Source: an uncultured bacterium (lineage in GTDB: Bacteria; Auribacterota; JACPWU01). From it: 32,000 bases of DNA. A program made the translations under genes and the position numbers. Of this stretch, positions 125 through 24,784 are shown piece after piece (position 1 is the first letter of the stretch; every line of letters begins with the position of its first letter). Location: positions 194,189 through 226,188 of the forward strand of contig CAZXEQ010000003.1 of NCBI GenBank assembly GCA_964640155.1, in the 5' to 3' direction. The notes beneath the pieces were generated by a model that did not search any database, was not told the origin of the DNA, and saw only the letters and a program-made list of their open reading frames with translations.

Positions 125-1105
125 ATGAATATAGAAAATCATTCAAAAATAGCTATCGAGTTACTTCGGCGTATGAAACTGATTCGTATGACTGAGGAAA
201 CAATCGCAGAAAGATATTCTGAAGGTAAAATGCGTTGTCCTACTCATCTTTCTATTGGTCAAGAGGCTGTTGCAGCAGCAGCCGGATTAGCTTTGTCTTC
301 TAAAGATCAGGTTGTAAGTACACATCGATCACATGCTCATTACATTGGCAAAGGGGGTGATCTTAAAGCGATGATGGCTGAACTTTATGGAAAAAAAACG
401 GGGTGTAGTTCTGGGCGTGGAGGGTCCATGCATTTGACCGATATGTCCGTTGGCTATCTTGCCAGTACAGCCATTGTGGGCAATTCTATTCCTATAGGAG
501 TGGGAGCAGCACTCTCTAATCAAATATTAAAAAATGAACTTATCAGTTGTGTTTTTATTGGAGATGCCGCCGTAGAGACAGGCGTATTTCATGAATCAGC
601 AAATTTTGCTGCTTTAAAAAAGTTACCTGTTCTTTTTGTGTGTGAGAATAATTTTTATTCTGTCTACACTCATTTAAGAGAGCGTCAACCAGAGGGTAGG
701 GAAATTTGGAAGCTAGCAGCTGCGCATGGTTTAACATCGCAAACGGGAGACGGGAATGATGCGTGGACATGTTATTGTCAAATTTCAGATGCTTTAAACC
801 ATATTCGACAAGGAGGAAAGCCTGTTTTTTTAGAGTTTTTTACATATCGTTGGAGAGAGCATTGTGGCCCATTTTATGATGATGATTTAGGATACCGTCC
901 ACTCGAGGAGATCAGTGAATGGAAGGCGAAAGACCCTATTCCTAAACTTGAGAAAAAACTGTTGGATAGCGGACTTATAGATGCCAATGAAATTACGATG
1001 ATGAATCAGGAAATATTAGAAGAAGTAAATTCTGCGTTTCGTTTTGCTGAAGAGTCTGATTTTCCTTCAGCTGAGGATGCTTTCACGTTTCTTTATAAAG
1101 AATGA
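125..1105 (+). CDS. ThDP-dependent 2-oxoacid/acetoin dehydrogenase E1 component, alpha subunit-like
   Basis: 326 aa. Carries a ThDP-binding motif of the GDG-X(~26)-NN type (GDAAVETGVFHESANFAALKKLPVLFVCENN). An E1 beta partner follows 6 nt downstream. Confidence 0.85.
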   Translation: MNIENHSKIAIELLRRMKLIRMTEETIAERYSEGKMRCPTHLSIGQEAVAAAAGLALSSKDQVVSTHRSHAHYIGKGGDLKAMMAELYGKKTGCSSGRGGSMHLTDMSVGYLASTAIVGNSIPIGVGAALSNQILKNELISCVFIGDAAVETGVFHESANFAALKKLPVLFVCENNFYSVYTHLRERQPEGREIWKLAAAHGLTSQTGDGNDAWTCYCQISDALNHIRQGGKPVFLEFFTYRWREHCGPFYDDDLGYRPLEEISEWKAKDPIPKLEKKLLDSGLIDANEITMMNQEILEEVNSAFRFAEESDFPSAEDAFTFLYKE

Positions 1106-1111
1106 GGATTC

Positions 1112-2170
1112 ATGGCCAGAAATATTAAGTTTTCTCAGGCAATTAATGAAGCTTTGCATGAAGCAATGGCTGAAGATGCGCGTGTCATTATTTATGGTTT
1201 AGGTGTTCCGGATCCAAAAGCTATATTTGGTACAACATCAGGGCTAAGAGATCGTTTTGGCTCTGAAAGAGTTTTCGATATGCCTATTTCTGAAAATGCT
1301 ATGACAGGGATAGCTGTTGGAGCAGGACTCACGGGTTTAAGACCGGTTATGATTCATCAACGTTTAGACTTCTTTCTTTTGGCCATGGATCAATTGGTGA
1401 ATAGTGCAGCGAAATGGTATTACACTTTTGGTGGTAGAGCCAGTGTTCCTCTGACAATTCGTCTTTTGGTGGGGCGTGGTTGGGGTCAGGGTCCAACACA
1501 TTCTCAAAGTCTTCAATCATGGTTTGCACATATCCCTGGATTGAAGGTTGTAATGCCTACTTTTGCGAAGGATGCCAAAGGTTTGCTTTTATCCAGTATT
1601 TTTGATGATAATCCCGTTGTTTTCATAGAACATCGATGGTTGCATAATTCAGAAGGAGATGTTCCAGAGGAGAACGTTAGAATTCCTTTGGGTAAGGCAG
1701 CCTTGCTGAAAGAAGGGCGTGATTTGACGTTAGTAGGAATGTCTTTGATGACGATTGAGGCTTTAAAAGTTGCTGATGAACTTATGAAATATGGCATTTC
1801 GTGTGATGTTATTGACTTGCGCAGCATTAGTCCCTTAGATTGGGAAACTATTTTCGGTTCTGTTCGTAAAACAGGACGGATGTTAGTGATGGATACAAGC
1901 TGGCCTATCTGCTCTGTTTCTAGCGAAATTGTTGCTCAAGTAACAATGAATCTTTGGAGTTATCTTAAAGAAGCTCCTCAACGAATCACACTACCTCATT
2001 TTCCAGTTCCTACAGGTTTTTCTCTAACAAAAGACTTTTATCCAACGTCAAAACAAATTACTCAGCAAGTCTTGTCCATGTTGAAAGGGGCTCATGGAAA
2101 AGAAACTGTTGGCACAAATCACAATGAACTTCATGATATTCCTGGTAATTGGTTCAAGGGGCCTTTCTAA
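1112..2170 (+). CDS. ThDP-dependent dehydrogenase E1 component, beta subunit-like (transketolase-like Pyr and C-terminal domains)
   Basis: 352 aa. GAGGA Shine-Dalgarno just upstream. Shows typical E1-beta blocks (FDMPISENAMTGIAVGAGLTGLRPV, PVVFIEHRWL, DLTLVGMS, DVIDLRSISPLD). Confidence 0.85.
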   Translation: MARNIKFSQAINEALHEAMAEDARVIIYGLGVPDPKAIFGTTSGLRDRFGSERVFDMPISENAMTGIAVGAGLTGLRPVMIHQRLDFFLLAMDQLVNSAAKWYYTFGGRASVPLTIRLLVGRGWGQGPTHSQSLQSWFAHIPGLKVVMPTFAKDAKGLLLSSIFDDNPVVFIEHRWLHNSEGDVPEENVRIPLGKAALLKEGRDLTLVGMSLMTIEALKVADELMKYGISCDVIDLRSISPLDWETIFGSVRKTGRMLVMDTSWPICSVSSEIVAQVTMNLWSYLKEAPQRITLPHFPVPTGFSLTKDFYPTSKQITQQVLSMLKGAHGKETVGTNHNELHDIPGNWFKGPF

Positions 2171-2199
2171 AAAATTTTTGATTTTTCACGGAGGATTTA

Positions 2200-3246
2200 A
2201 TGAAGATTAAAGCAGCTGTATTGGTTGAGAATAAGAAGCCTTTGGTTATCGAAGAATTGGAAGTTCCTCCTTTAAGATTTGGACAAGTATTAGTTAAAAT
2301 ACTGGCATCAGGAATTTGTGGTTCGCAAATTAATGAAATTGACGCAGTCAAGGGCACAGATAAATTTTTGCCTCATTTGTTGGGGCATGAGGCAACTGCT
2401 ATCGTTGTCGATTGTGGAGAAGGTGTAACAACAGTTCGAAAAGATGATCGAGTGGTGTGTCATTGGAGAAAGGGCGCTGGAATTCATGCTCCAACAGCCC
2501 AATTTAAGTCGGCACGTGGAATGATTAATTCAGGGTGGGTAACGACTTTTAGTCAATATTCTGTTGTATCGGAAAATCGAGTAACAAAAATTCCCCCTGA
2601 TTTTGATCCAGAAATTGGTGCGTTAATGGGATGTGCCGTAACGACAGCCATGGGGGTCATTAATAATGATGCCCATCTAGGAATAGGAGAATCAATCGCA
2701 GTTTTTGGAACGGGGGGAGTGGGATTAAATATTGTGCAATTTGCGGCTTTAGTGATAGGGCATCCCATTATTGCAATTGACCTATATGATCATAAGTTGG
2801 AATTGGCGAAAAAATTAGGTGCAACCCATACCATTAATGCTTCTAGGGAAGATGTAACCACTCAAATAAGAAATATTGTCGGTACGGATGGGGTGGATGT
2901 TGCGATTGAAAATACAGGAGTTGCCGATGTCATAGAGACAGCTTATAACGTTACAAGCGGCAAGGGAAAAACGATTTTAGTGGGCGTATTAAATAAGAAT
3001 GGGAAATATCCCAGTTTCTATACCTTACCGTTACACTTTCAAAAGACTTTAAAGGGTTCCGAAGGTGGAAGTTCTAGACCTGACTTGGACATACCCAAGA
3101 TTGTACGGTTAGTTCAGTCAGGAAAAATCAAATTTGATGGACTTATTAGTAAGAGATATTCATTAAGTAAGATTAATGAGGCTATCGATGATTTGAGAAA
3201 AGGCAAAGTTGCTGGCCGATGTATTATCAATGACTTCGAAAACTAA
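2200..3246 (+). CDS. Zinc-dependent medium-chain alcohol dehydrogenase/reductase
   Basis: 348 aa. GGAGGA SD at about 2189. Has the GHE zinc-ligand motif (LGHEATAIV), an early CGSQ cysteine and a Rossmann GTGGVGLN motif. Confidence 0.85.
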   Translation: MKIKAAVLVENKKPLVIEELEVPPLRFGQVLVKILASGICGSQINEIDAVKGTDKFLPHLLGHEATAIVVDCGEGVTTVRKDDRVVCHWRKGAGIHAPTAQFKSARGMINSGWVTTFSQYSVVSENRVTKIPPDFDPEIGALMGCAVTTAMGVINNDAHLGIGESIAVFGTGGVGLNIVQFAALVIGHPIIAIDLYDHKLELAKKLGATHTINASREDVTTQIRNIVGTDGVDVAIENTGVADVIETAYNVTSGKGKTILVGVLNKNGKYPSFYTLPLHFQKTLKGSEGGSSRPDLDIPKIVRLVQSGKIKFDGLISKRYSLSKINEAIDDLRKGKVAGRCIINDFEN

Positions 3247-4217: not shown

Positions 4218-5213
4218 ATGTCGCAGACATGTGTTGTTATCGGAAGTAACTGTTTTACCGGTAGCCATATCGTAGATGCACTTTTGCATGATTCAACATA
4301 TTCTGTCGTTGGTATAAGTCGATCACCAGAATATCCAGATATTTTTCTTCCTTATAAAAACAGAAAGAGTAACAGTAACAATTTTAAATTTTACCAAATT
4401 GATTTAGTGAAGCAATTTGAAGTTCTTGTTGATCTTTTAGATCGTCTTCGTCCTTCTGTCGTGGTTAACGTAGCTGCTTTGAGCGAAGTTGCTTTAAGTA
4501 ACTATAAACCTGTTGAATATTTTGAAGTGAACACGCTGGGAACCGTGAGGCTTTGTAATCATTTAAGGCAGTGTGATTATCTTAGTCAGTACGTTCATAT
4601 TTCATCGGCTGAGATTGTGGGTTCATGTGATAAAGCGATTCCAGAAGGAAAAATCTTTAAACCAAGTACACCTTATGCAGTTTCTAAAGCAGCTGCTGAT
4701 ATGTACATAGATACCTTAATACAGAATTTTGGATTTCCTGCAACTTTAATTCGGTCTACCAATGTTTATGGTAAGCATCAACAGCTTTTTAAAATTATTC
4801 CTCGAGCTATTATTTATCTTAAGCTTGGGAAAATTATAGAACTTCATGGTGCGGGGAAAGCGATTAAATCATTTATTCATGTGCGTGATGTTGTAGATGG
4901 TTTGATTCGTGCCATCAAGAGTCAAAAATTTGGTACATTTCATTTAAGTGTAATAAGTCAGCAAGCCATTTCGGATATTATTAAACAGATTACTTCCTGG
5001 ATGGGATATGACTTTGAGAAATCTGTTTCGGTAGTAGAAGAGCGGTTGGGACAGGATGCACAGTATTTGCTAGATTGTAATAGAGCAAAAAAAGAACTTA
5101 ATTGGAATCCTAAGATTTCATTTCAAGAAGGGGTTCAGGAAACTATCGATTGGATTGAAACGTATTGGGATTTAATCAAACAGTTCCCTTTGAGCTATGT
5201 TCATAAGATCTAG
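4218..5213 (+). CDS. Extended-SDR NAD-dependent sugar-nucleotide dehydratase/epimerase (candidate LegB-type 4,6-dehydratase)
   Basis: 331 aa. AAGGA SD upstream. Rossmann motif VVIGSNCFTGSHIV, an S-x-E element (ISSAEIVG) and YxxxK (YAVSKAAADMY). The S/T-x-E plus YxxxK combination fits the 4,6-dehydratase pattern, but a GalE-like epimerase cannot be excluded. Confidence 0.75.
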   Translation: MSQTCVVIGSNCFTGSHIVDALLHDSTYSVVGISRSPEYPDIFLPYKNRKSNSNNFKFYQIDLVKQFEVLVDLLDRLRPSVVVNVAALSEVALSNYKPVEYFEVNTLGTVRLCNHLRQCDYLSQYVHISSAEIVGSCDKAIPEGKIFKPSTPYAVSKAAADMYIDTLIQNFGFPATLIRSTNVYGKHQQLFKIIPRAIIYLKLGKIIELHGAGKAIKSFIHVRDVVDGLIRAIKSQKFGTFHLSVISQQAISDIIKQITSWMGYDFEKSVSVVEERLGQDAQYLLDCNRAKKELNWNPKISFQEGVQETIDWIETYWDLIKQFPLSYVHKI

Positions 5214-6456
5214 CCAGGGTCTTTTGCAAGTTTTTTACTGGGATCCGCTTCAAATATTTAAGAACTTTATAAAACTGTGCTTGTATATACTCGCCATTCC
5301 TGGTGTTTTTCTCATTCGTGTGATGCGACCATGGTTTCTAGTGCGCGTAGGATTTTTGATCAGTGAACGGATAGGACATTTTGCGGCCAACACGGAATTA
5401 TACCTCTGTGAGAAAGATGTAGGAATTAATGTGCCTAAGCAGCAGTATGTGGATTTATTTTCGTTACAAAAGAGAATTTGTAATCAACAATTAGTTGTCA
5501 TGTGGAGGCGAATCCTTCGTATTTGGCCATATTGGATTGTTGCCGCAATATTCAGGGTTAATCAGTTTATTCCTGGGGGGGGTATCCATGAAGTAGGGGG
5601 GAATACACAACATGATCGAGATGTTCATAATCTACTCGATCGATTCCCATCACATTTAGAATTTACCTCTGAAGAAGAAATGAGAGGGCAAATGGGTTTA
5701 CTTGCGATGGGGATTCCAAAAGGGGCATCTTTTGTTTGTCTAAATGTAAGAGACAATGCTTATCTTTCTGGCCACATCCCAGAGTATGATTGGAGTTACC
5801 ATGATTATCGTGACAGCAATATAAAGAATTATATTTTAGCTGCAGAGGAGCTTGCAAATCGTGGTTACTATGTAATTCGTATGGGAGCCAAAGTCAGAGA
5901 TCCAATCGATTCAAATCATCCTAAAATCATTGATTATGCAGTGAATGGAATGAGAACTGAATTTATGGATGTCTATCTTGGAGCAAAATGTTTTTTTAGT
6001 ATTTCGACTAGTACTGGATGGGATTCAATTCCCTATGTGTTTAGACGGCCTATTGTTTATGTGAACTTTCTTCCATTGGGAGGAGGATTTACTTTTATAA
6101 GGACTTCGTTATTTATTACAAGACGACATTTTTTAAAGCAAGAAAATAGAGTTCTTTCTTTAAGTGAAATATTTAAATATGGTGTTGGTTTTTCATATAG
6201 ATCAGAAGACTTTACTTCTAGAGGAATCAAATTGCTAGAAAATACTCCGGAAGAAATTCGTGATGTGATCGTAGAGATGGTTGAACGCTTAAATGGAACG
6301 TGGCAATCAAATGAAGTTGATGAAGATTTGCAGAAACGATTTTGGGAGATTTTTCCAGTAGATGCAAAAGCTCATAATGGCAATCCTTGGCATGGTGAAA
6401 TCAGATCGCGTTTTGGAACGATATTTCTGCGCAATAATCAAAATTGGCTAAAATAA
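5197..6456 (+). CDS. Uncharacterised putative glycosyl/other-group transferase (possibly TIGR04372-like); paralogue of 15837-17120
   Basis: 419 aa. Shares collinear blocks with the 15837 ORF: (F/Y)VCL(N/H)VR(D/E), YR(D/N)x(N/E)IKNY, GYxxxR(M/L)G, IDY, (F)MD(V/L)YL, CxFF, EN(T/S)xEEI. The family name is from memory of product names and is not verified. Contains a G8 tract at 5575-5582. Confidence 0.55.
   Translation: MFIRSSQGLLQVFYWDPLQIFKNFIKLCLYILAIPGVFLIRVMRPWFLVRVGFLISERIGHFAANTELYLCEKDVGINVPKQQYVDLFSLQKRICNQQLVVMWRRILRIWPYWIVAAIFRVNQFIPGGGIHEVGGNTQHDRDVHNLLDRFPSHLEFTSEEEMRGQMGLLAMGIPKGASFVCLNVRDNAYLSGHIPEYDWSYHDYRDSNIKNYILAAEELANRGYYVIRMGAKVRDPIDSNHPKIIDYAVNGMRTEFMDVYLGAKCFFSISTSTGWDSIPYVFRRPIVYVNFLPLGGGFTFIRTSLFITRRHFLKQENRVLSLSEIFKYGVGFSYRSEDFTSRGIKLLENTPEEIRDVIVEMVERLNGTWQSNEVDEDLQKRFWEIFPVDAKAHNGNPWHGEIRSRFGTIFLRNNQNWLK
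5575..5582 (+). repeat. Homopolymeric G8 tract inside the 5197-6456 CDS
   Basis: Read directly: cct ggg ggg ggt (P-G-G-G). A G6 run follows 13 nt downstream (5596-5601). Confidence 0.95.
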
Positions 6457-15836: not shown

Positions 15837-17120
15837 TTGTTGATCTATATCATAAATAAACTAAATTCCCTTAAGATTTTTCCCTATCTGATTGTATCGC
15901 CATTGCCCTATGCAATTGGGACTGCATCTGAAGAAATATATTTTGCTGTTTTGAGATCATCAGTTACAAATAAGAAATTAATTTTGTTTTGCCCCATGAA
16001 GTTTACTGAAGTTTTGAGTTATCATCGATGTAATTTAATGTTGTTCAAGATTACCTTTAAGGGACAATATCAACCTTTTGTTGGAGTTAAGATTGTTTTA
16101 GGATTTGTAATTTCTCTTGAGTTTTTCTTTCGTCGGACCATTTCATTATTATTAAGAAAAGTATTTAAATTTCAAACTTCTGAAAGCTGGAGATTTCCTA
16201 GATTAGGAATAAAAGAGATTTATTATACTGGTATTCCTACGGACAGAAAAGAAATAGGGGATTGTTGCTTTGAGAAACTGCCATCCAAATCCTTTAATAT
16301 ATCTATACCTAGCTTTACTGAACAGAAATGTGCAGATAAATTAAGACATTTTGGTTTAGACTCAGGTCAAAAATATGTTTGCCTGCATGTTAGAGAGTCA
16401 GGGTATAGAAGTGACAAAGGTAGGCGTGAATATAGAAACGCTGAAATAAAAAATTATGTAGATGGTGTTTCCAAGCTTATTAATGATGGATATTTGATAT
16501 TTAGATTGGGAGATGATTCGATGACTCCATTCCCCGTTAAGATAAAAGGTTTAATTGACTATCCATTTATGGCTTTGAAATCTGATGAAATGGATCTTTA
16601 TTTGTTAAAGAATTGTGATTTTTTCATAGGCATGCAATCAGGATTACTCGATACAGCTTGGCTTTTTCAAAAGCCAGTTCTTATTACAAACATGTATAAC
16701 GCCTTTACAACATTTCCACGCAATATAGAAGATAGGGGCATCTTTAAACATGTTAAACTTAAAGGTACAAATAATTTTTTTTCTTTAAGAGAATGGTTTC
16801 AGCAATCATGGTCTGCACATAGTTATTCACGTGAAATCTCGGAGTATGAATTTATTGAAAATTCTACAGAAGAAATTTATGATGCCATTAATGAATTTAT
16901 TTTGATTCAAACTAAACGGTTGGATTCCAGTCCGAATGAATTGCAGAAAAAGTTTAATCATCTTTTGAAAGAGACTTTGCGTAATCATATTTTAAAAAAG
17001 AAAACGAGTGCCATAGATACGTTTTCCAACTTGCCAAACTTGCAAAAGGTGAGAATGGGTAGAATGATTATGAGCTCACAAGGTGCTATCTCTGCCAGCT
17101 TTTTGGGAGAAAATTTTTGA
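15837..17120 (+). CDS. Uncharacterised putative transferase, paralogue of 5197-6456
   Basis: 427 aa. Shares the conserved blocks listed for 5197-6456 (YVCLHVRESGY, YRNAEIKNY, GYLIFRLGDD, IDYP, EMDLYL, CDFFIG, ENSTEEI). The start is uncertain: TTG 15837 is the only upstream in-frame start that keeps the conserved N-terminal block. Confidence 0.5.
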   Translation: MLIYIINKLNSLKIFPYLIVSPLPYAIGTASEEIYFAVLRSSVTNKKLILFCPMKFTEVLSYHRCNLMLFKITFKGQYQPFVGVKIVLGFVISLEFFFRRTISLLLRKVFKFQTSESWRFPRLGIKEIYYTGIPTDRKEIGDCCFEKLPSKSFNISIPSFTEQKCADKLRHFGLDSGQKYVCLHVRESGYRSDKGRREYRNAEIKNYVDGVSKLINDGYLIFRLGDDSMTPFPVKIKGLIDYPFMALKSDEMDLYLLKNCDFFIGMQSGLLDTAWLFQKPVLITNMYNAFTTFPRNIEDRGIFKHVKLKGTNNFFSLREWFQQSWSAHSYSREISEYEFIENSTEEIYDAINEFILIQTKRLDSSPNELQKKFNHLLKETLRNHILKKKTSAIDTFSNLPNLQKVRMGRMIMSSQGAISASFLGENF

Positions 17121-17136
17121 ATGAGTTTGGATATTA

Positions 17137-18438
17137 ATGAGCTTTTTTGATCATCCTATAAATCGCTTTATGCAGGGCATGCCCTCATCTTGCGAGTGGA
17201 CGATTGCAGATGAAAGCTTAATCGAGGCAATATGTCATGGGACCACTATTCAAAGAGGTCCTCGAACAACGATTTTAAGAAAATTCTTAACCTTGGGATG
17301 CAGACTGAATCTTTCTCTGTTTTTTATATCCTTATCCGGTGTTCTTTTAACGATAAGACTTATCATGAAAGAACTTCTGTTAGCCTTTAGATCAAAAAAA
17401 ATAAGGGTAGGAGATAAGGAAAAATTAAATATTTTTATTGGTTTTGGTGCTCGTAATGAAGAGTTTCTATTTCATAAATATTGTATAGAGAAGAAATCTC
17501 GTGTGGTTTATGCAGATTTAAACCGGTTGGGAGCTACAGGAATTAGATTTTTTAGAATAGGATTAGTCTTAAAATTTTTAAGAAATGCTATTGGTGATAT
17601 ATCAAAAGTTGTTTCAGCTCTTCCATGTGACTATAAAATTAAAAAAATTGAATTTATTGTCTCTGCAGTTATCAGGTTAGCAAATTATGCTTATGCAAGA
17701 GCTTGGTGGAGAAATCTAGTTATAAAAAATTGGATTGATGAAGCTTGTTTTATTTCAACAGATCCGATTGCATATGCTTCTGTCTATGAAGGGGTTTGGT
17801 CCATATATATGCAACACGGCCTGCTTTCTAAATATTTGCCTTTTCCAGATTTTAATGAAATTAAGACTCTTACTTATTTTGAGTGTGACTATCTTCAAAG
17901 AAAATATCCTAAAGCTTTAATTCGCTTCCCTCAGAACATACAGACCATCTCTTTGAAAAAAAGAAAACCTCGGGTACTTATCGCTTCTGAAATAAGATCT
18001 CCCGAAGATTTGGGTTTAATTGTTCCTTTACTGGCAGATATATCAAAGCTGGGTTTAACCATTCACATTCGACCGATTAAAGAAGAAGTGTTGCTAAAGT
18101 TTTTAGATTCATTACAACTCAATATCAATATTTGTGTTGAAACATCAACAGGTTCATTTGATAAAATATTAGAGCAACTGCAGCCCTGCTTTGTCGCAGG
18201 ATGGGTATCAACGGCCCTTATTGATGCTCTCAATCATGGAATAATTCCTATTAGTGTAGTTAAAGAAAATGATCGTTATGCACATAGAATGTTGTATCCA
18301 GTATACCGCTTTTGTTTGATGTGGCCTAACGATCAATCCTCTATTAAAGAAGCATTTACATGTACAGAAACCTACTCCCAAATTTTTCACAGGCTGATAT
18401 ATAAAGGGGAAAGAACTAATTCCTTTTCATGCGCGTAA
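17137..18438 (+). CDS. Hypothetical protein (orphan; possible membrane-anchored transferase)
   Basis: 433-aa uninterrupted ORF, tightly packed between neighbours, with coding-like composition. One hydrophobic segment (LNLSLFFISLSGVLLTIRLIM). The C-terminal half alternates beta/alpha-like segments (RVLIASEIRSPEDLGLIVPLL, CFVAGWVSTALIDALNHGIIPISV). I recognise no family motif. Confidence 0.5.
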   Translation: MSFFDHPINRFMQGMPSSCEWTIADESLIEAICHGTTIQRGPRTTILRKFLTLGCRLNLSLFFISLSGVLLTIRLIMKELLLAFRSKKIRVGDKEKLNIFIGFGARNEEFLFHKYCIEKKSRVVYADLNRLGATGIRFFRIGLVLKFLRNAIGDISKVVSALPCDYKIKKIEFIVSAVIRLANYAYARAWWRNLVIKNWIDEACFISTDPIAYASVYEGVWSIYMQHGLLSKYLPFPDFNEIKTLTYFECDYLQRKYPKALIRFPQNIQTISLKKRKPRVLIASEIRSPEDLGLIVPLLADISKLGLTIHIRPIKEEVLLKFLDSLQLNINICVETSTGSFDKILEQLQPCFVAGWVSTALIDALNHGIIPISVVKENDRYAHRMLYPVYRFCLMWPNDQSSIKEAFTCTETYSQIFHRLIYKGERTNSFSCA

Positions 18439-18442
18439 TATT

Positions 18443-19666
18443 ATGACTCTTATTCATAAATCTTCTAGAGAAATAGCTAACACATATTCCTTTAATGATG
18501 CTGATCAATGGTTATTGACTAATGCTTTTAATATAGATGAAGTACTTGCAATTGTTTTTTTAGGACGAAGCGGAAGTGTTTTTCTGGGAAGTTTGCTAGA
18601 TAATCATCCTCAGATCATTATGTTGCCTGGAACTCAGTTATCATTTTATTATGATTTTTGGGAAAGTTATGGACATTCGCTTCAAAAAGACCATTTAATT
18701 AAAACTTTTTGCGCCTATTTTTCCGCTTTTTTTGATGTTTTTGCATTTAGTGCCTTGTCATTGAGAACACAGCCAGCCCTTGTTCTTGGCTTTTCTGAAA
18801 TGGGGAGTGAACGTAATGAAAAGATTGAAGTAAATAAAGAGAAGTTTATACAGGTGCTACATTTTATTTTAGATAAAGTTTCCTCTGTTGATCGAAAAAG
18901 TTTTTTTCGAGCTATTCATATTGCATACACCATTGCTAGCAACAGGAGTTCTCAGCTTCATCAATCTAAGTTGCCTATGATCGTTTATCAATTGCATATG
19001 AATTGGCCTCCTTTAGTTAAGCATTTGATATCTGATTTCCCAAAAACAAAAATTATTCATATGATAAGAGAACCTTTTCAAACGATAGGATCACATTTCA
19101 AGCATTCAGGATACAACTGTCATGTTATGAATCACTTTTATAATGATGCATTTTTATACGGAGGTAAAGATCGCTCAAGGGCAATAAAACTTGAAGATTT
19201 ACATACAGAGCCAAAACAAACTTTAGAAAAAATAATTAAATGGATAGGTATTGGTTGGTCTGATTCACTTCTAGAGTCAACTTTTAATGGAAAAAAATGG
19301 TGGAACTTAAAAGATGTAGAGCAAGTCCATGGATTTAATAAAGTGATTATCTCAAAAAATCATAGCAGTTTTTATTATAAATTTGATGAGTATCGATTAA
19401 ATGTTTTGTATTTTAAACGATTTAAATTATGGGGATACCCATGCAGAGATGTTTCGAAGCTCGAGAGGTTTTTAATATTACCCTTATTACTCATGCCTTT
19501 TAAAATGGAACTTATATACTATCGAAATGATATTTCATCAAGAAAATTAGTTCGTCTGAAGAATATTATATTCGATTGGGTCGATCCACGAAGAAGGCGT
19601 AGCTATTTAGTCAAAGCGTGGAGATATTCGTTGTCACACGAACTACGTGAAGTGCCACTTTTGTAA
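18443..19666 (+). CDS. Sulfotransferase-fold protein (3'-phospho-nucleotide-donor-dependent transferase)
   Basis: 407 aa. 5'-PSB-like loop GRSGSVFLGSLLDNHP, 3'-PB-like block IIHMIREPFQTIGSHF, and a C-terminal KLEDLHTEPKQTLEKIIKWIGI block, as in bacterial Sulfotransfer_3-type proteins. Confidence 0.7.
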   Translation: MTLIHKSSREIANTYSFNDADQWLLTNAFNIDEVLAIVFLGRSGSVFLGSLLDNHPQIIMLPGTQLSFYYDFWESYGHSLQKDHLIKTFCAYFSAFFDVFAFSALSLRTQPALVLGFSEMGSERNEKIEVNKEKFIQVLHFILDKVSSVDRKSFFRAIHIAYTIASNRSSQLHQSKLPMIVYQLHMNWPPLVKHLISDFPKTKIIHMIREPFQTIGSHFKHSGYNCHVMNHFYNDAFLYGGKDRSRAIKLEDLHTEPKQTLEKIIKWIGIGWSDSLLESTFNGKKWWNLKDVEQVHGFNKVIISKNHSSFYYKFDEYRLNVLYFKRFKLWGYPCRDVSKLERFLILPLLLMPFKMELIYYRNDISSRKLVRLKNIIFDWVDPRRRRSYLVKAWRYSLSHELREVPLL

Positions 19667-19784
19667 AGATCGTTTAGGGTTTCATGGACGAAGAAAGAGT
19701 GTAGGGCGGACTGATTTAGTTTGTCCTTAAAAATGTGATACATCTCAAAGGTCTTAAAAGTAAACCAGCAGTTGAGGGCAGTCG

Positions 19785-20312
19785 ATGACAAATTTCATTC
19801 CTACTTTGTTCTGGCTAACGGGTCTTTCGGGTGCAGGAAAAACCACGTTAGCATCGTTATTAACAAATAAATTGAGAGATCGTGGTTGCCCGGTTGTTTT
19901 TTTAGATGGCGACAATTTGAGGGAAGTTTACAAAAATCATTTTGGATATGATCGGGAAGGACGATTAGCAGCCAGTTTACAATATGCACGTTTATGTAAA
20001 ATATTGACGGAACAAAAAATTCATGTGGTTTGTGCAACCATCTCTCTGTTTCATCAAACACGGGATTGGAATCGGAAAAATATTAAAGATTATATTGAAG
20101 TTTTTGTTGATGTTCCTTTAGCGGAACTCATAAAACGTGATAGCAAGCAAATTTATTCCAGAGCAAAGGCAGGAGAATTAAAAAATATTGTTGGTATGGA
20201 TATAGAGCCAGAAATGCCAAAGCAAGCAGATATTATTATTCAGAATCATAGTAATGCTACTATTGAAGACAATGTGAATTCAATTTTAGAAATTTATGAT
20301 GCAAGATTTTAG
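19785..20312 (+). CDS. Adenylylsulfate-kinase-family small kinase (CysC-like; better fit to Cj1415-type cytidine diphosphoramidate 3'-kinase)
   Basis: 175 aa. P-loop GLSGAGKTTLA and an LDGDNLR block typical of APS kinases. The region after LDGDN is diverged from canonical CysC and the protein is shorter than typical CysC. The gene context is decisive (see findings). Confidence 0.75.
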   Translation: MTNFIPTLFWLTGLSGAGKTTLASLLTNKLRDRGCPVVFLDGDNLREVYKNHFGYDREGRLAASLQYARLCKILTEQKIHVVCATISLFHQTRDWNRKNIKDYIEVFVDVPLAELIKRDSKQIYSRAKAGELKNIVGMDIEPEMPKQADIIIQNHSNATIEDNVNSILEIYDARF

Positions 20313-20328: not shown

Positions 20329-21093
20329 ATGCAAACAGTATGGGACTATACCAAACTGGCAAATGCTTATATTAAAAGGCCTGATTATTCTGATACAGCC
20401 ATCGACCAAATGTGTCATTTGATGGGGGTTAATGTAGATAGCAAAATTTGTGATATTGGGGCGGGTGCAGGTCATTTAACCATAGCACTTGGGAAACGAG
20501 CTCTAAGCGTTAAGGCTGTAGAACCCAATGATGCGATGCGAGAAAATGGAATTGAGAGAACTAAAAAATTCAAAAATATTAGCTGGTATAAAGGAACTGC
20601 GGAGCAAACCCATCAAGATGAAAATCAATTTGATGCAGTAACATTTGGCTCTTCATTTAACGTATGTGATCAAAAAATCGCTTTGAAAGAATCCTTTCGT
20701 ATTGGTAAATCAGGTGCTTGGTTTGCATGTATGTGGAATCATCGTGATTTAAACGACTTCATTCAAAAAAATATTGAGGATATTATCAAATCTAATTTAC
20801 CAAATTATGATTATGGATTGCGTCGCCAGGACCAAGAACCTATTTTAAAAGCTTCTGGATTGTTTGAGGTTGTTAAATTTATAGAGGGCCCTGTGTTACA
20901 TCAACAATCTATTGATGAATGTGTTGAAGCTTGGCGCTCTCATGGGACATTGCACAGACAAACTAACGAAAATGATAAATTATTTAATAGCATTATCAGC
21001 GAGATTGAGACGTTTTTACGGTCTTTAAGAGTGAAAGATATTACTATTCCCTATGTCACTCGAATATGGGTGGCTAAATTTCTTAAGAAATGA
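20329..21093 (+). CDS. Class I SAM-dependent methyltransferase
   Basis: 254 aa. AAGGAG SD upstream. SAM motif I CDIGAGAGHLT, followed by an acidic post-I residue (VEPND). Confidence 0.8.
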   Translation: MQTVWDYTKLANAYIKRPDYSDTAIDQMCHLMGVNVDSKICDIGAGAGHLTIALGKRALSVKAVEPNDAMRENGIERTKKFKNISWYKGTAEQTHQDENQFDAVTFGSSFNVCDQKIALKESFRIGKSGAWFACMWNHRDLNDFIQKNIEDIIKSNLPNYDYGLRRQDQEPILKASGLFEVVKFIEGPVLHQQSIDECVEAWRSHGTLHRQTNENDKLFNSIISEIETFLRSLRVKDITIPYVTRIWVAKFLKK

Positions 21094-21102
21094 AGGGCTG
21101 CT

Positions 21103-23463
21103 ATGCTAACGGAAGTTAAAGAAGTCTATAAAAAAAAGATAAGTTTTTCTACCAAAGCTGAAACTCTTTTTAATTTGTCCGATAAGCTATCGACTGCAAA
21201 AGTATTACCATTGTATTTTTTTACGGTATTTGCTTGGAAAACAGATAGAAAAACAGTTTTATCAGAACTACAACAGGTTGATTGGTTTTATCAGAAATTA
21301 ATTGTTCGTAGCAGTGCTATTGGTGAAGATAGTGAAAAAAGTTCATTGGCAGGACAATACACTTCTATGATTAATGTAGAAGGTGGCGAAGGTTTTATTT
21401 CTGCTGTAGAAAATGTTATTTCTTCTTTTGATTCAGACAATTTAAATCATCAAGTGTTGGTTCAACCGTATTTATCTGACGTCACAACATCAGGCGTTGT
21501 ATTTGGCCGAGATCCTAACACAGGTGGCCCTTATGTCGTTGTTAATTATAATGATACAAGCGCAGATACTACTTCTATTACTTCAGGTGTTTCTAATCAT
21601 AAATGTTATATTCAGCATCATAAATCTCCTCTTCACGTAGATGAAAATGCTCCTATGAGTAAGATAATTAATCTTATCTTTGAGCTTGAAGATTTATTTA
21701 ATACCGTTTATTTAGATGTTGAATTTGCAATAAATAAACGACATGAATTATATTTATTTCAAGTTAGACCGCTCATCAGTCAAACAAAATGTTCAGTTGT
21801 AACACAGGAACATCAAAGAGCGATTGAACGTGTTGCAAATCGCATTTTTCTGGGTATGAAACCCCACCCCTATTTATATGGAAAACAAACAGTATATGGG
21901 GTAATGCCTGATTGGAATCCTGCTGAAATTATTGGTATCAGACCTAAACCCTTAGCTTTAAGTCTTTATCGAGAGCTTGTGACGGATGCTGTCTGGGCGT
22001 ATCAACGAGACAATTATGGCTATGCAAATTTGCGTAGTTTTCCTTTGCTCGTTGATTTTGAAGGGCTACCCTATATTGATGTGCGAGTTAGTTTTAATTC
22101 TTTTTTACCAAAGGAATTACCCCCTGATCTTGCAGAGAGGCTGGTTAATTACTATCTGGATCGACTCATTGACTGTCCTGGGTTACATGACAAAGTCGAA
22201 TTTGATATTGTTTTTTCTTGTTATACCCTTGATCTTCAGAAACGATTAGGTGCTTTAAATAATTATGGTTTTGATGATAATGATTGCTTGGCAATTTACC
22301 AATCATTAATTAAATTAACCAATCAAATCATTCATAATCAGCAAGGTCTTTGGAGAAAAGATTTAGAAAAAATTGAAGAATTACGCCATCGTCAACAACA
22401 GCTGTTTCAATCTGATCTTGATTCCATTTCAAAAATGTATTGGATTTTAGAAGATTGCAAACGTTATGGCACATTACCTTTTGCTGGTCTTGCTCGCGCT
22501 GGTTTTATTGCCATTCAAATTTTAAAATCATTTATTACCGTAGGGATCATTAACGAAGAGGAATATGCTAGATTTTTATCTTCTGTTAATTCAGTTAGTT
22601 CCACAATGAATGATGATTTTCGAAAAATGTCCAAAAGTAATTTTTTAGAAAAGTATGGGCATTTGAGGCCGGGAACATATGATGTTTTATCTTTACGATA
22701 TGATGAAGCAGCAGAACTTTATTTTGATTGGCAAAATAAAACTGTACCAGAGCACGAAAGACATTCTTCTTTTTCATTAACCGTGCAGCAGTTGTCTAAG
22801 ATTCAAGAACAAATTGATAGAGATGGATTACAAATTACCGCTCTTGAATTGCTTGAATTTATTAAGTTTGCCATTGAATCACGTGAGTATTCGAAATTTA
22901 TTTTTAGTCGAAGCGTGAGTGAATTTTTGAAAATATGTACCGGATTCTCTTCTCAATTTAATATCACACGCGATGACTGTGCTTACATTAACTTGAACAC
23001 GATTACCTCATTGTATAGTTCTAGTATTGATCCGCAAGAAGCATTAAGTAAAAGCATTGAGATTGGTAAAAAGCATTATCAGATGACCTCGGCTATGACT
23101 TCCCCCCCCTTAATAACACATCCATCACAAGCTTGGGCTTTTGAGGTTCCAGAGACTTTCCCTAATTTTATTACTCAAAAAAGTGCTATGGGAGAAGTTG
23201 TATTCCCTGATATTCAGAAACAATTAATAGCAAATGCAATATTAATGATTCCAAGTGCTGATCCTGGATATGATTGGATTTTTTCCCATAAAATTGCTGG
23301 ATTTATCACCAAATACGGTGGTGTTAATTCTCATATGGCCATTCGTGCGGGTGAATTAGGTATTCCTGCAATCATTGGCGTTGGTGAAATCAAATTCAAT
23401 CAATGGAGTCAGGCAAAGAAATTGCGTATTGATTGTTTAAATGCTCAAGTACAATTACTATGA
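21103..23463 (+). CDS. ATP-grasp (PPDK_N-type) / C-terminal phosphohistidine swivel-domain kinase, Cj1418-like (candidate L-glutamine kinase)
   Basis: 786 aa. N-terminal nucleotide-binding block VRSSAIGEDSEKSSLAGQYTS. PEP-utilisers mobile-domain block GGVNSHMAIRAGELGIPAIIGVG at the extreme C-terminus, with candidate phospho-His at residue 744 (CAT 23332-23334). Nothing follows the swivel domain, so there is no PEP/pyruvate TIM-barrel and this is not PpsA/PPDK. Confidence 0.75.
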   Translation: MLTEVKEVYKKKISFSTKAETLFNLSDKLSTAKVLPLYFFTVFAWKTDRKTVLSELQQVDWFYQKLIVRSSAIGEDSEKSSLAGQYTSMINVEGGEGFISAVENVISSFDSDNLNHQVLVQPYLSDVTTSGVVFGRDPNTGGPYVVVNYNDTSADTTSITSGVSNHKCYIQHHKSPLHVDENAPMSKIINLIFELEDLFNTVYLDVEFAINKRHELYLFQVRPLISQTKCSVVTQEHQRAIERVANRIFLGMKPHPYLYGKQTVYGVMPDWNPAEIIGIRPKPLALSLYRELVTDAVWAYQRDNYGYANLRSFPLLVDFEGLPYIDVRVSFNSFLPKELPPDLAERLVNYYLDRLIDCPGLHDKVEFDIVFSCYTLDLQKRLGALNNYGFDDNDCLAIYQSLIKLTNQIIHNQQGLWRKDLEKIEELRHRQQQLFQSDLDSISKMYWILEDCKRYGTLPFAGLARAGFIAIQILKSFITVGIINEEEYARFLSSVNSVSSTMNDDFRKMSKSNFLEKYGHLRPGTYDVLSLRYDEAAELYFDWQNKTVPEHERHSSFSLTVQQLSKIQEQIDRDGLQITALELLEFIKFAIESREYSKFIFSRSVSEFLKICTGFSSQFNITRDDCAYINLNTITSLYSSSIDPQEALSKSIEIGKKHYQMTSAMTSPPLITHPSQAWAFEVPETFPNFITQKSAMGEVVFPDIQKQLIANAILMIPSADPGYDWIFSHKIAGFITKYGGVNSHMAIRAGELGIPAIIGVGEIKFNQWSQAKKLRIDCLNAQVQLL
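23102..23109 (+). repeat. Homopolymeric C8 tract inside the Cj1418-like kinase CDS
   Basis: Read directly: act tcc ccc ccc tta (T-S-P-P-L). Confidence 0.95.
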
Positions 23464-24065
23464 ATCTGATTGCTATATCTCAGCGTACTCAATATATTTC
23501 TGAATATGAAGAGACAAGAGATTGTCTCGATCAACGCTGGCATGAATTCTTAACTTCTTGCCAGATAACCCCTTTACTGATTCCCAATCATCCAAAAATT
23601 GTGTGTGAGATCATTGAGGAAAATATACTTCAAGGTGTTTTATTGAGCGGTGGAAACGAGTCACCATTGCGGACAGAAACTGAAAATTTACTGTTAGAGT
23701 ATGCCATTCAAAAAAGATTACCTGTATTAGGCATTTGTCATGGAATGCAAATGATCCAGCAATATTTTGGTGTAAAGCTTCGAAAGATTACTGGTCATGT
23801 AATAGAGGATCAAGAAATATTAATTCATGGCATGCCGGATAGAGTGAATAGTTTCCATAATTATGGAACAACACAAACGTCGTGCGAACTTACTGTATGG
23901 GCAAAAGCAAGAGATGGCGTAATAAAAGCTATTAAACATAGTCATTTGCCCATTATGGGAATGATGTGGCATCCAGAAAGATGTCATCCCTTTAAAATAC
24001 GCGATATTCAATTTATTAAAAATTTTTTTTCCGGAGAACGATTGCAGTGCGGGCAATTATATTAG
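23460..24065 (+). CDS. Class I glutamine amidotransferase / peptidase C26-like gamma-glutamyl hydrolase (Cj1417-like)
   Basis: About 201 aa. Nucleophile elbow GICHGMQ and the WHPE His/Glu block. ATG 23460 forms an ATGA overlap with the upstream stop. The tracked start 23433 lies inside the previous gene. Confidence 0.8.
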   Translation: MNLIAISQRTQYISEYEETRDCLDQRWHEFLTSCQITPLLIPNHPKIVCEIIEENILQGVLLSGGNESPLRTETENLLLEYAIQKRLPVLGICHGMQMIQQYFGVKLRKITGHVIEDQEILIHGMPDRVNSFHNYGTTQTSCELTVWAKARDGVIKAIKHSHLPIMGMMWHPERCHPFKIRDIQFIKNFFSGERLQCGQLY

Positions 24066-24784
24066 CGGCAGGTCGTGGAAAGCGTATAGGCGATTTAACT
24101 GAAAGACAGCCCAAGGGAATGCTGAATTTGCATGGTAAACCATTTGTCGAATGGCAGATGCATGCTTTGCGTCAAACAGGCATTACTGAAATGGCAATTG
24201 TTAAAGGATATAGAGGTGATATTTTTTCTTATCCTGTTGCTTATTTCAATAATCCACGGTGGGAAAAGACCAATATGTTATCCACTTTGCTATGTGCGCA
24301 AGAGTGGTTAAGCCAGGATACCTGTATTGTTAGCTATTCAGATATTATTTATACGCAAGAAGCAGTTCAAAAGCTTGCAAGTTCACAAGGAGATATTGCA
24401 ATTACTTTTGATGCAAATTGGCTAAAATTATGGGAGCAACGTTTTGATGATCCTTTAAGTGATGCTGAAATTTTCAAATACGAAAAAGATACTCTTATTG
24501 AGGTTGGAGGCAAGGCAGAAGGATTGCATGAAATTCAGGGGCAGTATATGGGGCTCTTAAAGTTTACGGTGAGAGGATGGAAAAAGACTAAAGAATTTTT
24601 AAGTCAGTTATCCGACGATATCATTGATAAAATGGATATGACGACTTTATTAAAATTAATGTTGAAAAATAATTTTGAAATTTTTGTTACAGCAATTAGT
24701 ACACCATGGTGTGAAGTGGATAACATGAATGACTATGAGCTTTGTCAAAAAATTATGAATAAAAATGTGCTTTTACGATCTTGA
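24047..24784 (+). CDS. LicC/MobA-like nucleotidyltransferase (Cj1416-like candidate CTP:phosphoglutamine cytidylyltransferase)
   Basis: 245 aa. N-terminal (V/M)RAIILAAGRGKRIG signature, and a C-terminal WCEVDNMNDYE block like LicC-type cytidylyltransferases. GTG start overlaps the upstream gene by 19 nt. Confidence 0.75.
   Translation: MRAIILAAGRGKRIGDLTERQPKGMLNLHGKPFVEWQMHALRQTGITEMAIVKGYRGDIFSYPVAYFNNPRWEKTNMLSTLLCAQEWLSQDTCIVSYSDIIYTQEAVQKLASSQGDIAITFDANWLKLWEQRFDDPLSDAEIFKYEKDTLIEVGGKAEGLHEIQGQYMGLLKFTVRGWKKTKEFLSQLSDDIIDKMDMTTLLKLMLKNNFEIFVTAISTPWCEVDNMNDYELCQKIMNKNVLLRS

What the first reader, a model, noticed from the sequence alone, without database searches (positions are those of the whole stretch)
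18443..19666. Sulfotransferase-fold protein next to the CysC-like kinase: true sulfotransferase or phosphoramidate transferase?
The protein has PAPS-binding-like loops (GRSGS, IREPFQTIGS) and lies 118 nt upstream of the CysC-like kinase. The naive reading is PAPS supply plus sulfation.

Three things argue for another reading. The window has no ATP sulfurylase. The kinase is embedded in a MeOPN-type cassette. The terminal donor of that pathway, 3'-phospho-cytidine-5'-diphosphoramidate, is a structural analogue of PAPS (a 3'-phosphonucleotide carrying an activated 5' group).

A sulfotransferase fold using that donor to transfer the phosphoramidate would be a new activity for the fold. It would also differ from the Cj1421/Cj1422 transferases assigned in C. 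jejuni. I did not recognise any protein of the ~600-aa size I recall for Cj1421/Cj1422 in this window; that size comes from memory.
Basis: inference. Interest (0 to 1): 0.75.

Follow-up and report, generated by a model that had tools for sequence, protein, structure and literature searches.

The report
Sulfotransferase-fold enzyme, probable phosphoramidate transferase
A protein with the fold of a sulfate-transferring enzyme is genetically tied, across many bacterial phyla, to the pathway that makes a cytidine look-alike of the sulfate donor PAPS, so it most likely attaches a rare phosphorus-nitrogen group rather than sulfate to surface sugars.

Summary
ORF 18443-19666 (407 aa) is a Sulfotransfer_3 protein. 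Its AlphaFold model is confident (pLDDT 94) and matches only PAPS-dependent sulfotransferases. The 5'-phosphosulfate loop (GRSGS) and the 3'-phosphate motif (R209...S217) are intact. It lies 118 nt upstream of a Cj1415-type kinase, followed by a methyltransferase and Cj1418-, Cj1417- and Cj1416-like genes. No ATP sulfurylase is in the window.

- 8 of 10 homologs checked sit beside the same cassette (Coxiellaceae, Clostridium, Leptospira, Deltaproteobacteria, Magnetococcales).
- The family occurs in 27 of 80 cassette-bearing genomes, usually touching a cassette gene.
- In 120 metagenome loci it follows the 3'-kinase, not the cassette core (odds ratio 11, p = 6e-4).
- One protein fuses it to a cassette-type kinase, and that kinase type is also fused to glutamine kinases.
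- One locus has a separate PAPS synthase plus Sulfotransfer_1 pair alongside this module.

The donor was not tested. I could not obtain Cj1421/Cj1422 sequences, so whether they share this fold is unknown. I judge phosphoramidate transfer most likely (about 0.65) and true sulfation the main rival (about 0.17).

The parts
18443..19666 (+). Target: a 407-aa sulfotransferase-fold protein (Sulfotransfer_3) and candidate phosphoramidate transferase. Motifs: GRSGS at residues 41-45 (5'-PSB loop), invariant H185, R209...S217 (3'-phosphate motif), LEDLH at 250-254, ESTFNGKKWWN at 278-288.
   Evidence: Searches give the ORF and motifs. The AF2 model has pLDDT 94.1. Foldseek hits are all PAPS sulfotransferases. 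The family profile aligns to CurM-ST and TPST. Conservation was measured in 33 cassette-linked members.
19667..19784 (.). The 118-nt intergenic gap. The closest relatives carry a CysQ-like Inositol_P gene at this position; the window does not.
   Evidence: The relatives are L001, L009, L010 and L011. No terminator-like site falls in the gap.
19785..20312 (+). Cj1415-type kinase (APS-kinase fold), inferred to be the cytidine diphosphoramidate 3'-kinase.
   Evidence: Pfam APS_kinase at 3e-37. NCBIfam PRK05541 subfamily at 197 bits against a cutoff of 127. It is 41-61% identical to other cassette kinases and 31% identical to the true APS-kinase domain of the L011 Sat-CysC protein.
20329..21093 (+). 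SAM-dependent methyltransferase, the candidate for O-methylation of the phosphoramidate.
   Evidence: Pfam Methyltransf_11/25. It is conserved in the block across loci.
21103..23463 (+). Cj1418-like L-glutamine kinase (786 aa).
   Evidence: Pfam PPDK_N + PEP-utilizers. NCBIfam PRK05849 equivalog at 960 bits against a cutoff of 501. JGI names homologs 'glutamine kinase'.
23433..24065 (+). Cj1417-like gamma-glutamyl-CDP-amidate hydrolase (class-I GATase).
   Evidence: Pfam GATase and Peptidase_C26. The best NCBIfam hit is NF045546, gamma-glutamyl-CDP-amidate hydrolase, at 124 bits, which is below its 250-bit cutoff.
24047..24784 (+). Cj1416-like CTP:phosphoglutamine cytidylyltransferase.
   Evidence: Pfam NTP_transf_3. 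Its position in the cassette is conserved.

Best explanation
The 407-aa protein is a sulfotransferase-fold enzyme that has most likely been recruited as a phosphoramidate transferase.

The four cassette enzymes would work as their C. jejuni homologs do. That chemistry is established by Taylor and Raushel (2017-2018), which I know only through citing papers and from memory. Glutamine kinase makes L-glutamine phosphate. The cytidylyltransferase makes CDP-L-glutamine. The GATase-type hydrolase releases cytidine diphosphoramidate. The Cj1415-type kinase adds a 3'-phosphate, giving 3'-phospho-cytidine-5'-diphosphoramidate, a structural analogue of PAPS.

The remaining steps are inferred. The target binds this cofactor the way sulfotransferases bind PAPS: the GRSGS loop sits around the 5' diphosphate and R209/S217 hold the 3'-phosphate. 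An acceptor hydroxyl on the surface glycan (here an O-antigen or capsule-type glycan built next to a nonulosonic-acid pathway) attacks the terminal phosphorus, possibly activated by the invariant H185. This releases cytidine 3',5'-bisphosphate. In close relatives a CysQ-like phosphatase encoded between the two genes would recycle that product. The adjacent methyltransferase would give O-methyl phosphoramidate; whether it acts before or after transfer is unknown.
For: 1. Fold and cofactor motifs. Pfam assigns Sulfotransfer_3. The AF2 model has pLDDT 94. All significant Foldseek hits are PAPS sulfotransferases. The family profile aligns GRSGS and R209...S217 to the cofactor motifs of CurM-ST and TPST. 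G44, H185, R209, P211 and E251 are invariant in 33 cassette-linked members.

2. Conserved block. The order ST-kinase-MT-Cj1418-Cj1417-Cj1416 occurs in the window, Coxiellaceae, Clostridium sp. MB40-C1 (inside a flagellin island), Leptospira alexanderi, a deltaproteobacterium and others. In total 8 of 10 homologs checked directly are linked. Ten more share their contig length with glutamine-kinase hits.

3. Reverse test. The family occurs in 27 of 80 glutamine-kinase-anchored genomes. Of 32 family members that share a locus with cassette genes (all loci fetched up to that point), 20 lie within 200 nt of a cassette gene, and the nearest gene is the kinase in 18.

4. The family follows the 3'-kinase. 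In 120 metagenome cassette loci it is present in 7 of 22 with the kinase and 4 of 98 without (OR 11, p = 5.7e-4). In L208 the kinase-ST pair sits 3.5 kb away from the core genes.

5. Fusions. P0256 joins this family to an APS_kinase domain. That domain is 46-57% identical to cassette kinases and 34% identical to a true CysC domain. The same kinase type is fused to glutamine kinases in P0183 and P0199.

6. L011. This locus carries a Sat-CysC PAPS synthase plus a Sulfotransfer_1 protein, and separately the target-family ST, a CysQ-like gene, the Cj1415-type kinase and the rest of the cassette.

7. Missing piece. In the six-gene block the sulfotransferase is the only protein without an assigned step, and transfer is the only step without an assigned protein.

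8. The window has no ATP sulfurylase.
Against: Nothing here tests the donor directly. Every characterised relative uses PAPS, and the motifs that are conserved would bind either 3'-phosphonucleotide.

Sulfate-activation genes do occur near some cassettes: Sat-CysC in L011, and cysD, cysN and an SLC13 permease in a Vibrio plasmid.

Many cassettes that have the kinase lack this family: 15 of 22 in the metagenome set and roughly 50 of 80 in the genome set. Some carry other candidates instead, such as two 413-aa unknowns in Smac51 or TagF-like proteins. L096 has a TagF-like gene and the sulfotransferase together.

The transferases assigned genetically in C. jejuni are 609-642 aa, and I do not know their fold. 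The neighbouring ORF 17137-18438 is uncharacterised and cannot be excluded as a transferase.
Confidence: 0.65

Rival explanations
1. It is an ordinary PAPS-dependent glycan sulfotransferase. PAPS would come from cysDN/cysC or sat genes elsewhere in the genome, and its position next to the phosphoramidate cassette would only reflect that glycan-decoration genes cluster together.
For: The fold and cofactor motifs are those of PAPS enzymes. PAPS-synthesis genes lie near cassettes in L011 and in the Vibrio plasmid. The rest of the genome could not be inspected.
Against: The link is to the Cj1415-type kinase, not to CysC-type kinases, and it includes a direct fusion. The family follows that kinase statistically. 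L011 already has a dedicated Sulfotransfer_1 protein next to its PAPS synthase. The same gene order recurs across at least five phyla and in different glycan contexts, including O-antigen/capsule and flagellin islands. The window and the other linked loci, apart from L011, show no sulfurylase or sulfate transporter.
Confidence: 0.17
2. It belongs to the phosphoramidate system but is not the glycan transferase. It could bind or hydrolyse the 3'-phosphorylated cofactor, present it to the methyltransferase, or act on a non-glycan acceptor such as a lipid, protein or small molecule. Transfer to the glycan would then be done by another protein, for example ORF 17137-18438 or a TagF-like enzyme as in other loci.
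For: TagF-like, LicD or CDP-alcohol phosphatidyltransferase genes accompany many cassettes, and L096 has a TagF-like gene and the sulfotransferase together. ORF 17137-18438 ends 4 nt before the target and is unassigned.
Against: The window has no Pfam-detectable TagF, LicD or CDP-OH-PT gene. ORF 17137-18438 does not travel with the cassette: its only homolog is in L009, about 6 kb away. Family members are fused to GT2 and GT4 glycosyltransferase domains, which points to glycan acceptors. The kinase-less cassettes are the ones where TagF-like, LicD or CDP-OH-PT genes were seen without a sulfotransferase.
Confidence: 0.1

Closest known systems
C. jejuni O-methyl phosphoramidate (MeOPN) system: Cj1415-Cj1418 biosynthesis, Cj1419/Cj1420 methyltransferases, Cj1421/Cj1422 transferases
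   Same: The window has homologs of all four donor-biosynthesis enzymes and a SAM methyltransferase in one operon-like block inside a surface-glycan locus.
   Different: The candidate transferase is 407 aa, has a recognisable sulfotransferase fold and has no poly-G tract. Cj1421/Cj1422 are 609-642 aa, phase-variable, were first annotated as sugar transferases, and are assigned by genetics only (PMC7901785, PMC9561416). No Campylobacter protein appeared in the sequence or profile searches. Whether the two share a fold was not determined.
PAPS-dependent sulfotransferases closest in structure and sequence: TPST1/TPST2, and the CurM and OLS sulfotransferase domains
   Same: They share the fold, the 5'-phosphosulfate-binding loop and the R...S 3'-phosphate motif.
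   Different: Identity is only 14-17% and TM-scores are 0.3-0.5. The target has a C-terminal helical extension of about 130 aa. In the HMMER alignment the position of the CurM 'PPELH' segment is 'LPGTQ' in the target (the catalytic role of that Glu and His is from memory). Family-specific invariant residues are H185 and E251, with H254 nearly invariant. The genomic partners are cytidine-phosphoramidate enzymes, not sulfate-activation enzymes.
The PAPS cycle: ATP sulfurylase, APS kinase CysC, sulfotransferase, PAP phosphatase CysQ
   Same: The logic runs in parallel. A kinase adds the 3'-phosphate, a sulfotransferase-fold enzyme uses the donor, and a CysQ-like Inositol_P phosphatase is encoded between the two in close relatives.
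   Different: The nucleotide is cytidine, and the activated group is phosphoramidate made from glutamine. The kinase forms a separate clade from CysC.
CDP-donor phosphotransferases (TagF-like Glyphos_transf, LicD, CDP-alcohol phosphatidyltransferase)
   Same: They are found next to the same Cj1418-Cj1417-Cj1416 core in other genomes, so they are alternative candidates for the transfer step.
   Different: They have unrelated folds. In the annotated plasmid examples they occur in cassettes that lack the 3'-kinase, which suggests direct use of CDP-amidate. None is detectable in this window.

Membership tests
Sulfotransferase fold (Pfam Sulfotransfer_3, PF13469) | Profile match above the curated threshold | tested here: met
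   41.9 bits against a cutoff of 27, E 1.7e-10, covering residues 37-274.
Sulfotransferase fold (Pfam Sulfotransfer_3, PF13469) | Three-dimensional fold similar to solved sulfotransferases | tested here: met
   The AF2 model has pLDDT 94.1. Nineteen PDB hits have E <= 1e-3, all of them sulfotransferases, with probability 1.0 and TM-scores of 0.3-0.5.
Sulfotransferase fold (Pfam Sulfotransfer_3, PF13469) | 5'-phosphosulfate-binding loop and 3'-phosphate-binding R...S motif | tested here: met
   GRSGS at residues 41-45 aligns to PRSGST of CurM-ST and RSGTT of TPST. R209...S217 aligns to RHPYSVIES and RDGRASVHS. R209 is invariant in 33 linked members.
Sulfotransferase fold (Pfam Sulfotransfer_3, PF13469) | Uses PAPS and transfers a sulfuryl group | not testable with these tools
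Sulfotransferase fold (Pfam Sulfotransfer_3, PF13469) | Catalytic base at the position used by the nearest solved relatives (Glu of TPST2 and CurM-ST; residue roles from memory) | tested here: inconclusive
   In the HMMER alignment CurM 'PPELH' aligns to the family's 'lPgty', which is L61-P62-G63-T64-Q65 in the window. The Glu is absent there, but the invariant H185 could act as the base, as His does in cytosolic sulfotransferases.
MeOPN / phosphoramidate donor cassette (Cj1415-Cj1418 type) | L-glutamine kinase homolog | tested here: met
   PRK05849 equivalog at 960 bits against a cutoff of 501. Sources name homologs 'glutamine kinase'.
MeOPN / phosphoramidate donor cassette (Cj1415-Cj1418 type) | Gamma-glutamyl-CDP-amidate hydrolase and cytidylyltransferase homologs adjacent | tested here: inconclusive
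   The best NCBIfam hit for the GATase is NF045546, but at 124 bits it is below the 250-bit cutoff. The NTP_transf_3 protein is adjacent. Order and content are conserved in more than 100 loci.
MeOPN / phosphoramidate donor cassette (Cj1415-Cj1418 type) | APS-kinase-fold kinase of the cassette type rather than true CysC | tested here: met
   It is 41-61% identical to other cassette kinases and 31% identical to the L011 Sat-CysC kinase domain. The same type is fused to glutamine kinases.
MeOPN / phosphoramidate donor cassette (Cj1415-Cj1418 type) | A phosphoramidate or MeOPN group present on the glycan | not testable with these tools
   This needs 31P NMR or mass spectrometry of the glycan.
Cj1421/Cj1422 MeOPN transferase family | Sequence homology to Cj1421/Cj1422 | not tested
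   The sequences could not be retrieved. The genome scan kept only the best 80 loci. The homology list was cut at 120. The PDB has no entry. AFDB50 was unavailable. No Campylobacter hit appeared.
Cj1421/Cj1422 MeOPN transferase family | Size of about 610-640 aa and a phase-variable poly-G tract | tested here: not met
   The target is 407 aa and has no G or C run of 6 or more in the gene. The C. jejuni sizes come from PMC7901785.

The most novel reading that the evidence does not exclude
A Cj1415-type 3'-kinase together with a sulfotransferase-fold enzyme forms a mobile two-gene module that defines a second, cytidine-based 'PAPS-like' cofactor system. Under this reading, sulfotransferase-fold proteins (this family and probably others found beside the cassette) are the general phosphoramidate transferases of bacteria. 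Phosphoramidate decoration of O-antigens, capsules and flagellin glycans would then be far more widespread than the Campylobacter literature suggests, since the glutamine kinase family has at least 7,780 protein clusters and occurs in at least 574 species-level genomes.
Probability: 0.55. Interest if true: 0.85.

Novelty: new variant of a known kind. Interest (0 to 1): 0.72.

Why it matters
The final transfer step of the MeOPN pathway has never been reconstituted. The C. jejuni transferases are assigned by genetics only, and recent papers from the group working on this pathway still list the decoration step as future work (PMC12409886).

A small, soluble-looking enzyme that models with high confidence would make the step directly testable, and it is encoded in cultivable organisms such as Clostridium sp. 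MB40-C1, Leptospira alexanderi and Clostridium beijerinckii.

If the prediction holds, three things follow. The sulfotransferase fold gains a new reaction class, transfer of a P-N group from a cytidine cofactor. Proteins now annotated as 'sulfotransferase' beside these cassettes would need re-annotation. And an immunologically important, phage-receptor-forming glycan decoration would be shown to be common in environmental and host-associated bacteria.

Tried and rejected
Routes to Cj1421/Cj1422 that failed:
- The genome-contig scan with a glutamine-kinase alignment returned only the best 80 of at least 574 loci, none from Campylobacter.
- The PDB holds no C. jejuni cassette proteins to use as stepping stones.
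- A profile search with the family alignment gave no Campylobacter hit.
- The last homology search, with the kinase, listed only 120 of 7,780 hits.
- The original Raushel manuscripts are not held.
- An AT-rich motif scan of metagenomes returned marine contigs only.
- The ~600-aa family members are from Magnetococcales or unnamed metagenomes, not Campylobacter.

Other attempts that led nowhere:
- Choosing a Campylobacter-like query by scoring GATases against NF045546. All scored 99-139 bits, so none was closer.
- Testing whether 'cluster 4' is a cryptic sulfotransferase. It has no Pfam hit, and hhalign gave only E 0.003 at 10% probability despite motif-level alignment. This stays a lead.
- Characterising ORF 17137-18438. 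It has no Pfam, NCBIfam or PDB hit. The single-sequence AF2 model had pLDDT 37. hhalign found no link to TagF-like proteins, the sulfotransferase family or the Smac51 proteins.

Considered and rejected:
- That the kinase is a true CysC supplying PAPS (and the L011 control).
- That a strict rule links 'kinase present' with 'sulfotransferase present'. The Smac51 plasmid and many kinase-positive loci lack the family.

Full report
**Observation.** The ORF at 18443-19666 (+ strand, 407 aa) is as described. GRSGS lies at residues 41-45 and IREPFQTIGS at 208-217. The gap to the next gene is 118 nt. Pfam assigns Sulfotransfer_3 (E 1.7e-10, 41.9 bits against a cutoff of 27).

**The neighbourhood.** The window is a single-strand surface-glycan locus at 37.7% GC. 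It contains:
- E1 alpha/beta dehydrogenase subunits and a zinc alcohol dehydrogenase;
- sugar-nucleotide enzymes and an ABC exporter;
- a legionaminic/pseudaminic-type nonulosonic-acid pathway;
- two TIGR04372 glycosyltransferases and an unassigned 433-aa ORF;
- the target;
- an APS-kinase-fold kinase, a SAM methyltransferase, a 786-aa PPDK_N/PEP-utilizer protein, a class-I GATase and an NTP_transf_3 protein;
- a FemAB-like protein, GT4 enzymes, a Wzy-like protein and a deacetylase.

NCBIfam places the 786-aa protein in the PRK05849 equivalog (960 bits against a cutoff of 501). The GATase's best match is gamma-glutamyl-CDP-amidate hydrolase, though below that model's cutoff. The kinase falls in the PRK05541 subfamily. 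JGI annotates homologs of the 786-aa protein as glutamine kinase. No ORF in the window hits an ATP-sulfurylase family.

**The protein itself.** With a 73-sequence alignment, AlphaFold2 gives pLDDT 94.1 and pTM 0.92. Foldseek against the PDB returns only sulfotransferases at E <= 1e-3: TPST1/2, the CurM and OLS sulfotransferase domains, Stf1, Stf9 and 3-OST. TM-scores are modest and identity is 11-17%. The family profile hits CurM-ST at 4e-16 and aligns both cofactor motifs. In 33 cassette-linked members G44, H55, H185, R209, P211 and E251 are invariant. The protein therefore keeps everything needed to bind a nucleoside 3'-phosphate 5'-diphospho-X donor. The base specificity could not be assessed.

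**Does the family travel with the cassette?**
- *Forward test.* Eight of ten homologs examined in their genomic context lie beside the cassette. They come from a Coxiellaceae MAG, Clostridium sp. MB40-C1 (inside a flagellin island), Leptospira alexanderi, a deltaproteobacterium, a Magnetococcales MAG and three unnamed contigs. The two most distant homologs (27-29% identity) do not.
- *Reverse test.* The glutamine kinase occurs in at least 574 species-level genomes and at least 7,780 protein clusters. In the best 80 genome loci the target's family is present in 27. Of 32 family members that share a locus with cassette genes, across all loci fetched up to that point, 20 lie within 200 nt of a cassette gene, and the nearest gene is most often the kinase.
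- *Other subfamilies.* Sulfotransferase proteins of other subfamilies also sit beside cassettes: L016, the Azospirillum plasmid, and several marine loci.

**The family follows the 3'-kinase.** An independent sample of 120 low-GC metagenome loci all have the core genes (kinase Cj1418-like, hydrolase, cytidylyltransferase). Only 22 have the Cj1415-type kinase. The sulfotransferase family occurs in 7 of those 22 and in 4 of the other 98 (OR 11, p = 5.7e-4). Of those four, two (L164, L202) have the sulfotransferase ORF running into the contig end, and the other two (L147, L155) are weak hits on short fragments. In L208 the kinase-sulfotransferase pair sits 3.5 kb away from the core, so the two genes behave as a module. 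Annotated plasmids show the complement: cassettes without the kinase in Vibrio, Agrobacterium and Pseudohalocynthiibacter carry TagF-like or CDP-alcohol phosphatidyltransferase genes and no sulfotransferase.

**Fusions.** P0256 joins this sulfotransferase family to an APS_kinase domain. That domain is 46-57% identical to cassette kinases and 34% identical to a true APS-kinase domain. The same kinase type is fused to glutamine kinases in P0183 and P0199. Other members are fused to GT2 or GT4 glycosyltransferase domains, which points to glycan acceptors.

**A natural control.** L011 encodes a Sat-CysC PAPS synthase followed by a Sulfotransfer_1 protein. Immediately after these come the target-family protein, a CysQ-like phosphatase, the Cj1415-type kinase and the rest of the cassette. 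That gives two kinase/transferase pairs in one locus. The cassette kinase is therefore not there to make PAPS. The same locus also shows that PAPS can be available nearby, so this evidence cuts both ways.

**Caveats.**
- The donor was not tested.
- Many kinase-positive cassettes lack this family. The Smac51 plasmid instead has two unrelated 413-aa paralogs.
- L096 has a TagF-like gene and the sulfotransferase together.
- ORF 17137-18438 remains unassigned.
- Cj1421/Cj1422 sequences could not be obtained by any route. The statement that the target differs from them rests only on size (407 aa versus 609-642 aa; PMC7901785), the lack of a poly-G tract and the absence of Campylobacter hits.
- No paper in the searchable library mentions MeOPN together with sulfotransferase.

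**Verdict.** The most likely function is phosphoramidate transfer from the cytidine analogue of PAPS (confidence about 0.65), with true sulfation as the main rival (about 0.17). It is best filed as a new variant of a known system, with a predicted activity that would be new for the fold.

Noticed in passing
L021, L025, L028, L039, L043, L078 and others (for example L039:14472-15557, - strand): A family of about 255 aa with no Pfam hit ('cluster 4') lies beside the cassette in at least 21 genomes, mostly Acidobacteriota-type loci. It carries GLFGTGRRY, YRHPLDSLLTNW and LRLEDF motifs that resemble sulfotransferase cofactor motifs. hhalign against the target family is weak (E 0.003) but aligns those motifs. 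It may be a second, cryptic sulfotransferase-fold partner of the cassette.
   Followed up: partly
window 19667-19784; L001:11211-11996; L011:7858-8643: The closest relatives carry a CysQ-like Inositol_P phosphatase gene between the sulfotransferase and the kinase. The window has only a 118-nt gap there. Homologs of this phosphatase occur in at least 16 cassette loci. This fits recycling of a nucleoside 3',5'-bisphosphate by-product.
   Followed up: partly
L089 (Vibrio alfacsensis plasmid), L092 (Agrobacterium vitis plasmid), L093; marine loci L099, L153, L166: Cassettes that lack the 3'-kinase and the methyltransferase carry TagF-like, LicD or CDP-alcohol phosphatidyltransferase genes instead. 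This suggests a second route that uses unphosphorylated CDP-amidate directly. In the Vibrio plasmid cysD, cysN and an SLC13 permease lie divergently next to such a cassette; I have no explanation for that.
   Followed up: partly
L090:6641-9181 (Azospirillum lipoferum 4B plasmid p6); L084:6288-9176: An 846-aa protein annotated 'adenylyl-sulfate kinase' has a cassette-type kinase domain at its C-terminus. Its N-terminal part (about 650 aa) has no Pfam hit but contains FIHFDLPRAAGDS and FVRNPFDWYISSYY motifs that look like sulfotransferase loops. Two Sulfotransfer_1 proteins lie downstream of the same cassette.
   Followed up: no
L094:7646-8887 and L094:12842-14083 (Deltaproteobacteria bacterium Smac51 plasmid): Two paralogous 413-aa proteins of unknown family flank the core genes in a cassette that also has the methyltransferase and the 3'-kinase. 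They are candidates for yet another transferase type, and the paired paralogs recall Cj1421/Cj1422.
   Followed up: partly
window 125-3246; L001:6851-9969; L006:8276-9902: Genes for a TPP-dependent E1 alpha/beta pair, with a zinc alcohol dehydrogenase in the window and L001, recur near or directly upstream of the sulfotransferase in several loci. An E1-beta-like neighbour cluster occurs in five genome loci. They may build an unusual sugar side chain linked to the modification.
   Followed up: no
window 17137-18438: A 433-aa ORF ends 4 nt before the target. It has no Pfam, NCBIfam or PDB match and gave an unusable single-sequence model. Its only homolog among the fetched loci is in the Coxiellaceae MAG (L009:19678-20991).
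   Followed up: partly
L002 (Clostridium sp. MB40-C1); L026, L052, L060, L067, L069 (Pseudomonas); P0212 cluster (Clostridium beijerinckii): The cassette sits inside flagellin or flagellar gene islands in Clostridium and Pseudomonas, which implies phosphoramidate-type decoration of flagellin glycans. C. beijerinckii encodes a GT4-sulfotransferase fusion from the target's family.
   Followed up: no
window 5197-6456 and 15837-17120: Two paralogous TIGR04372-family glycosyltransferases with no Pfam hit bracket the nonulosonic-acid biosynthesis genes. Homologs occur in L001/L009, L005 and L196. They are probably transferases for the nonulosonic acid.
   Followed up: no
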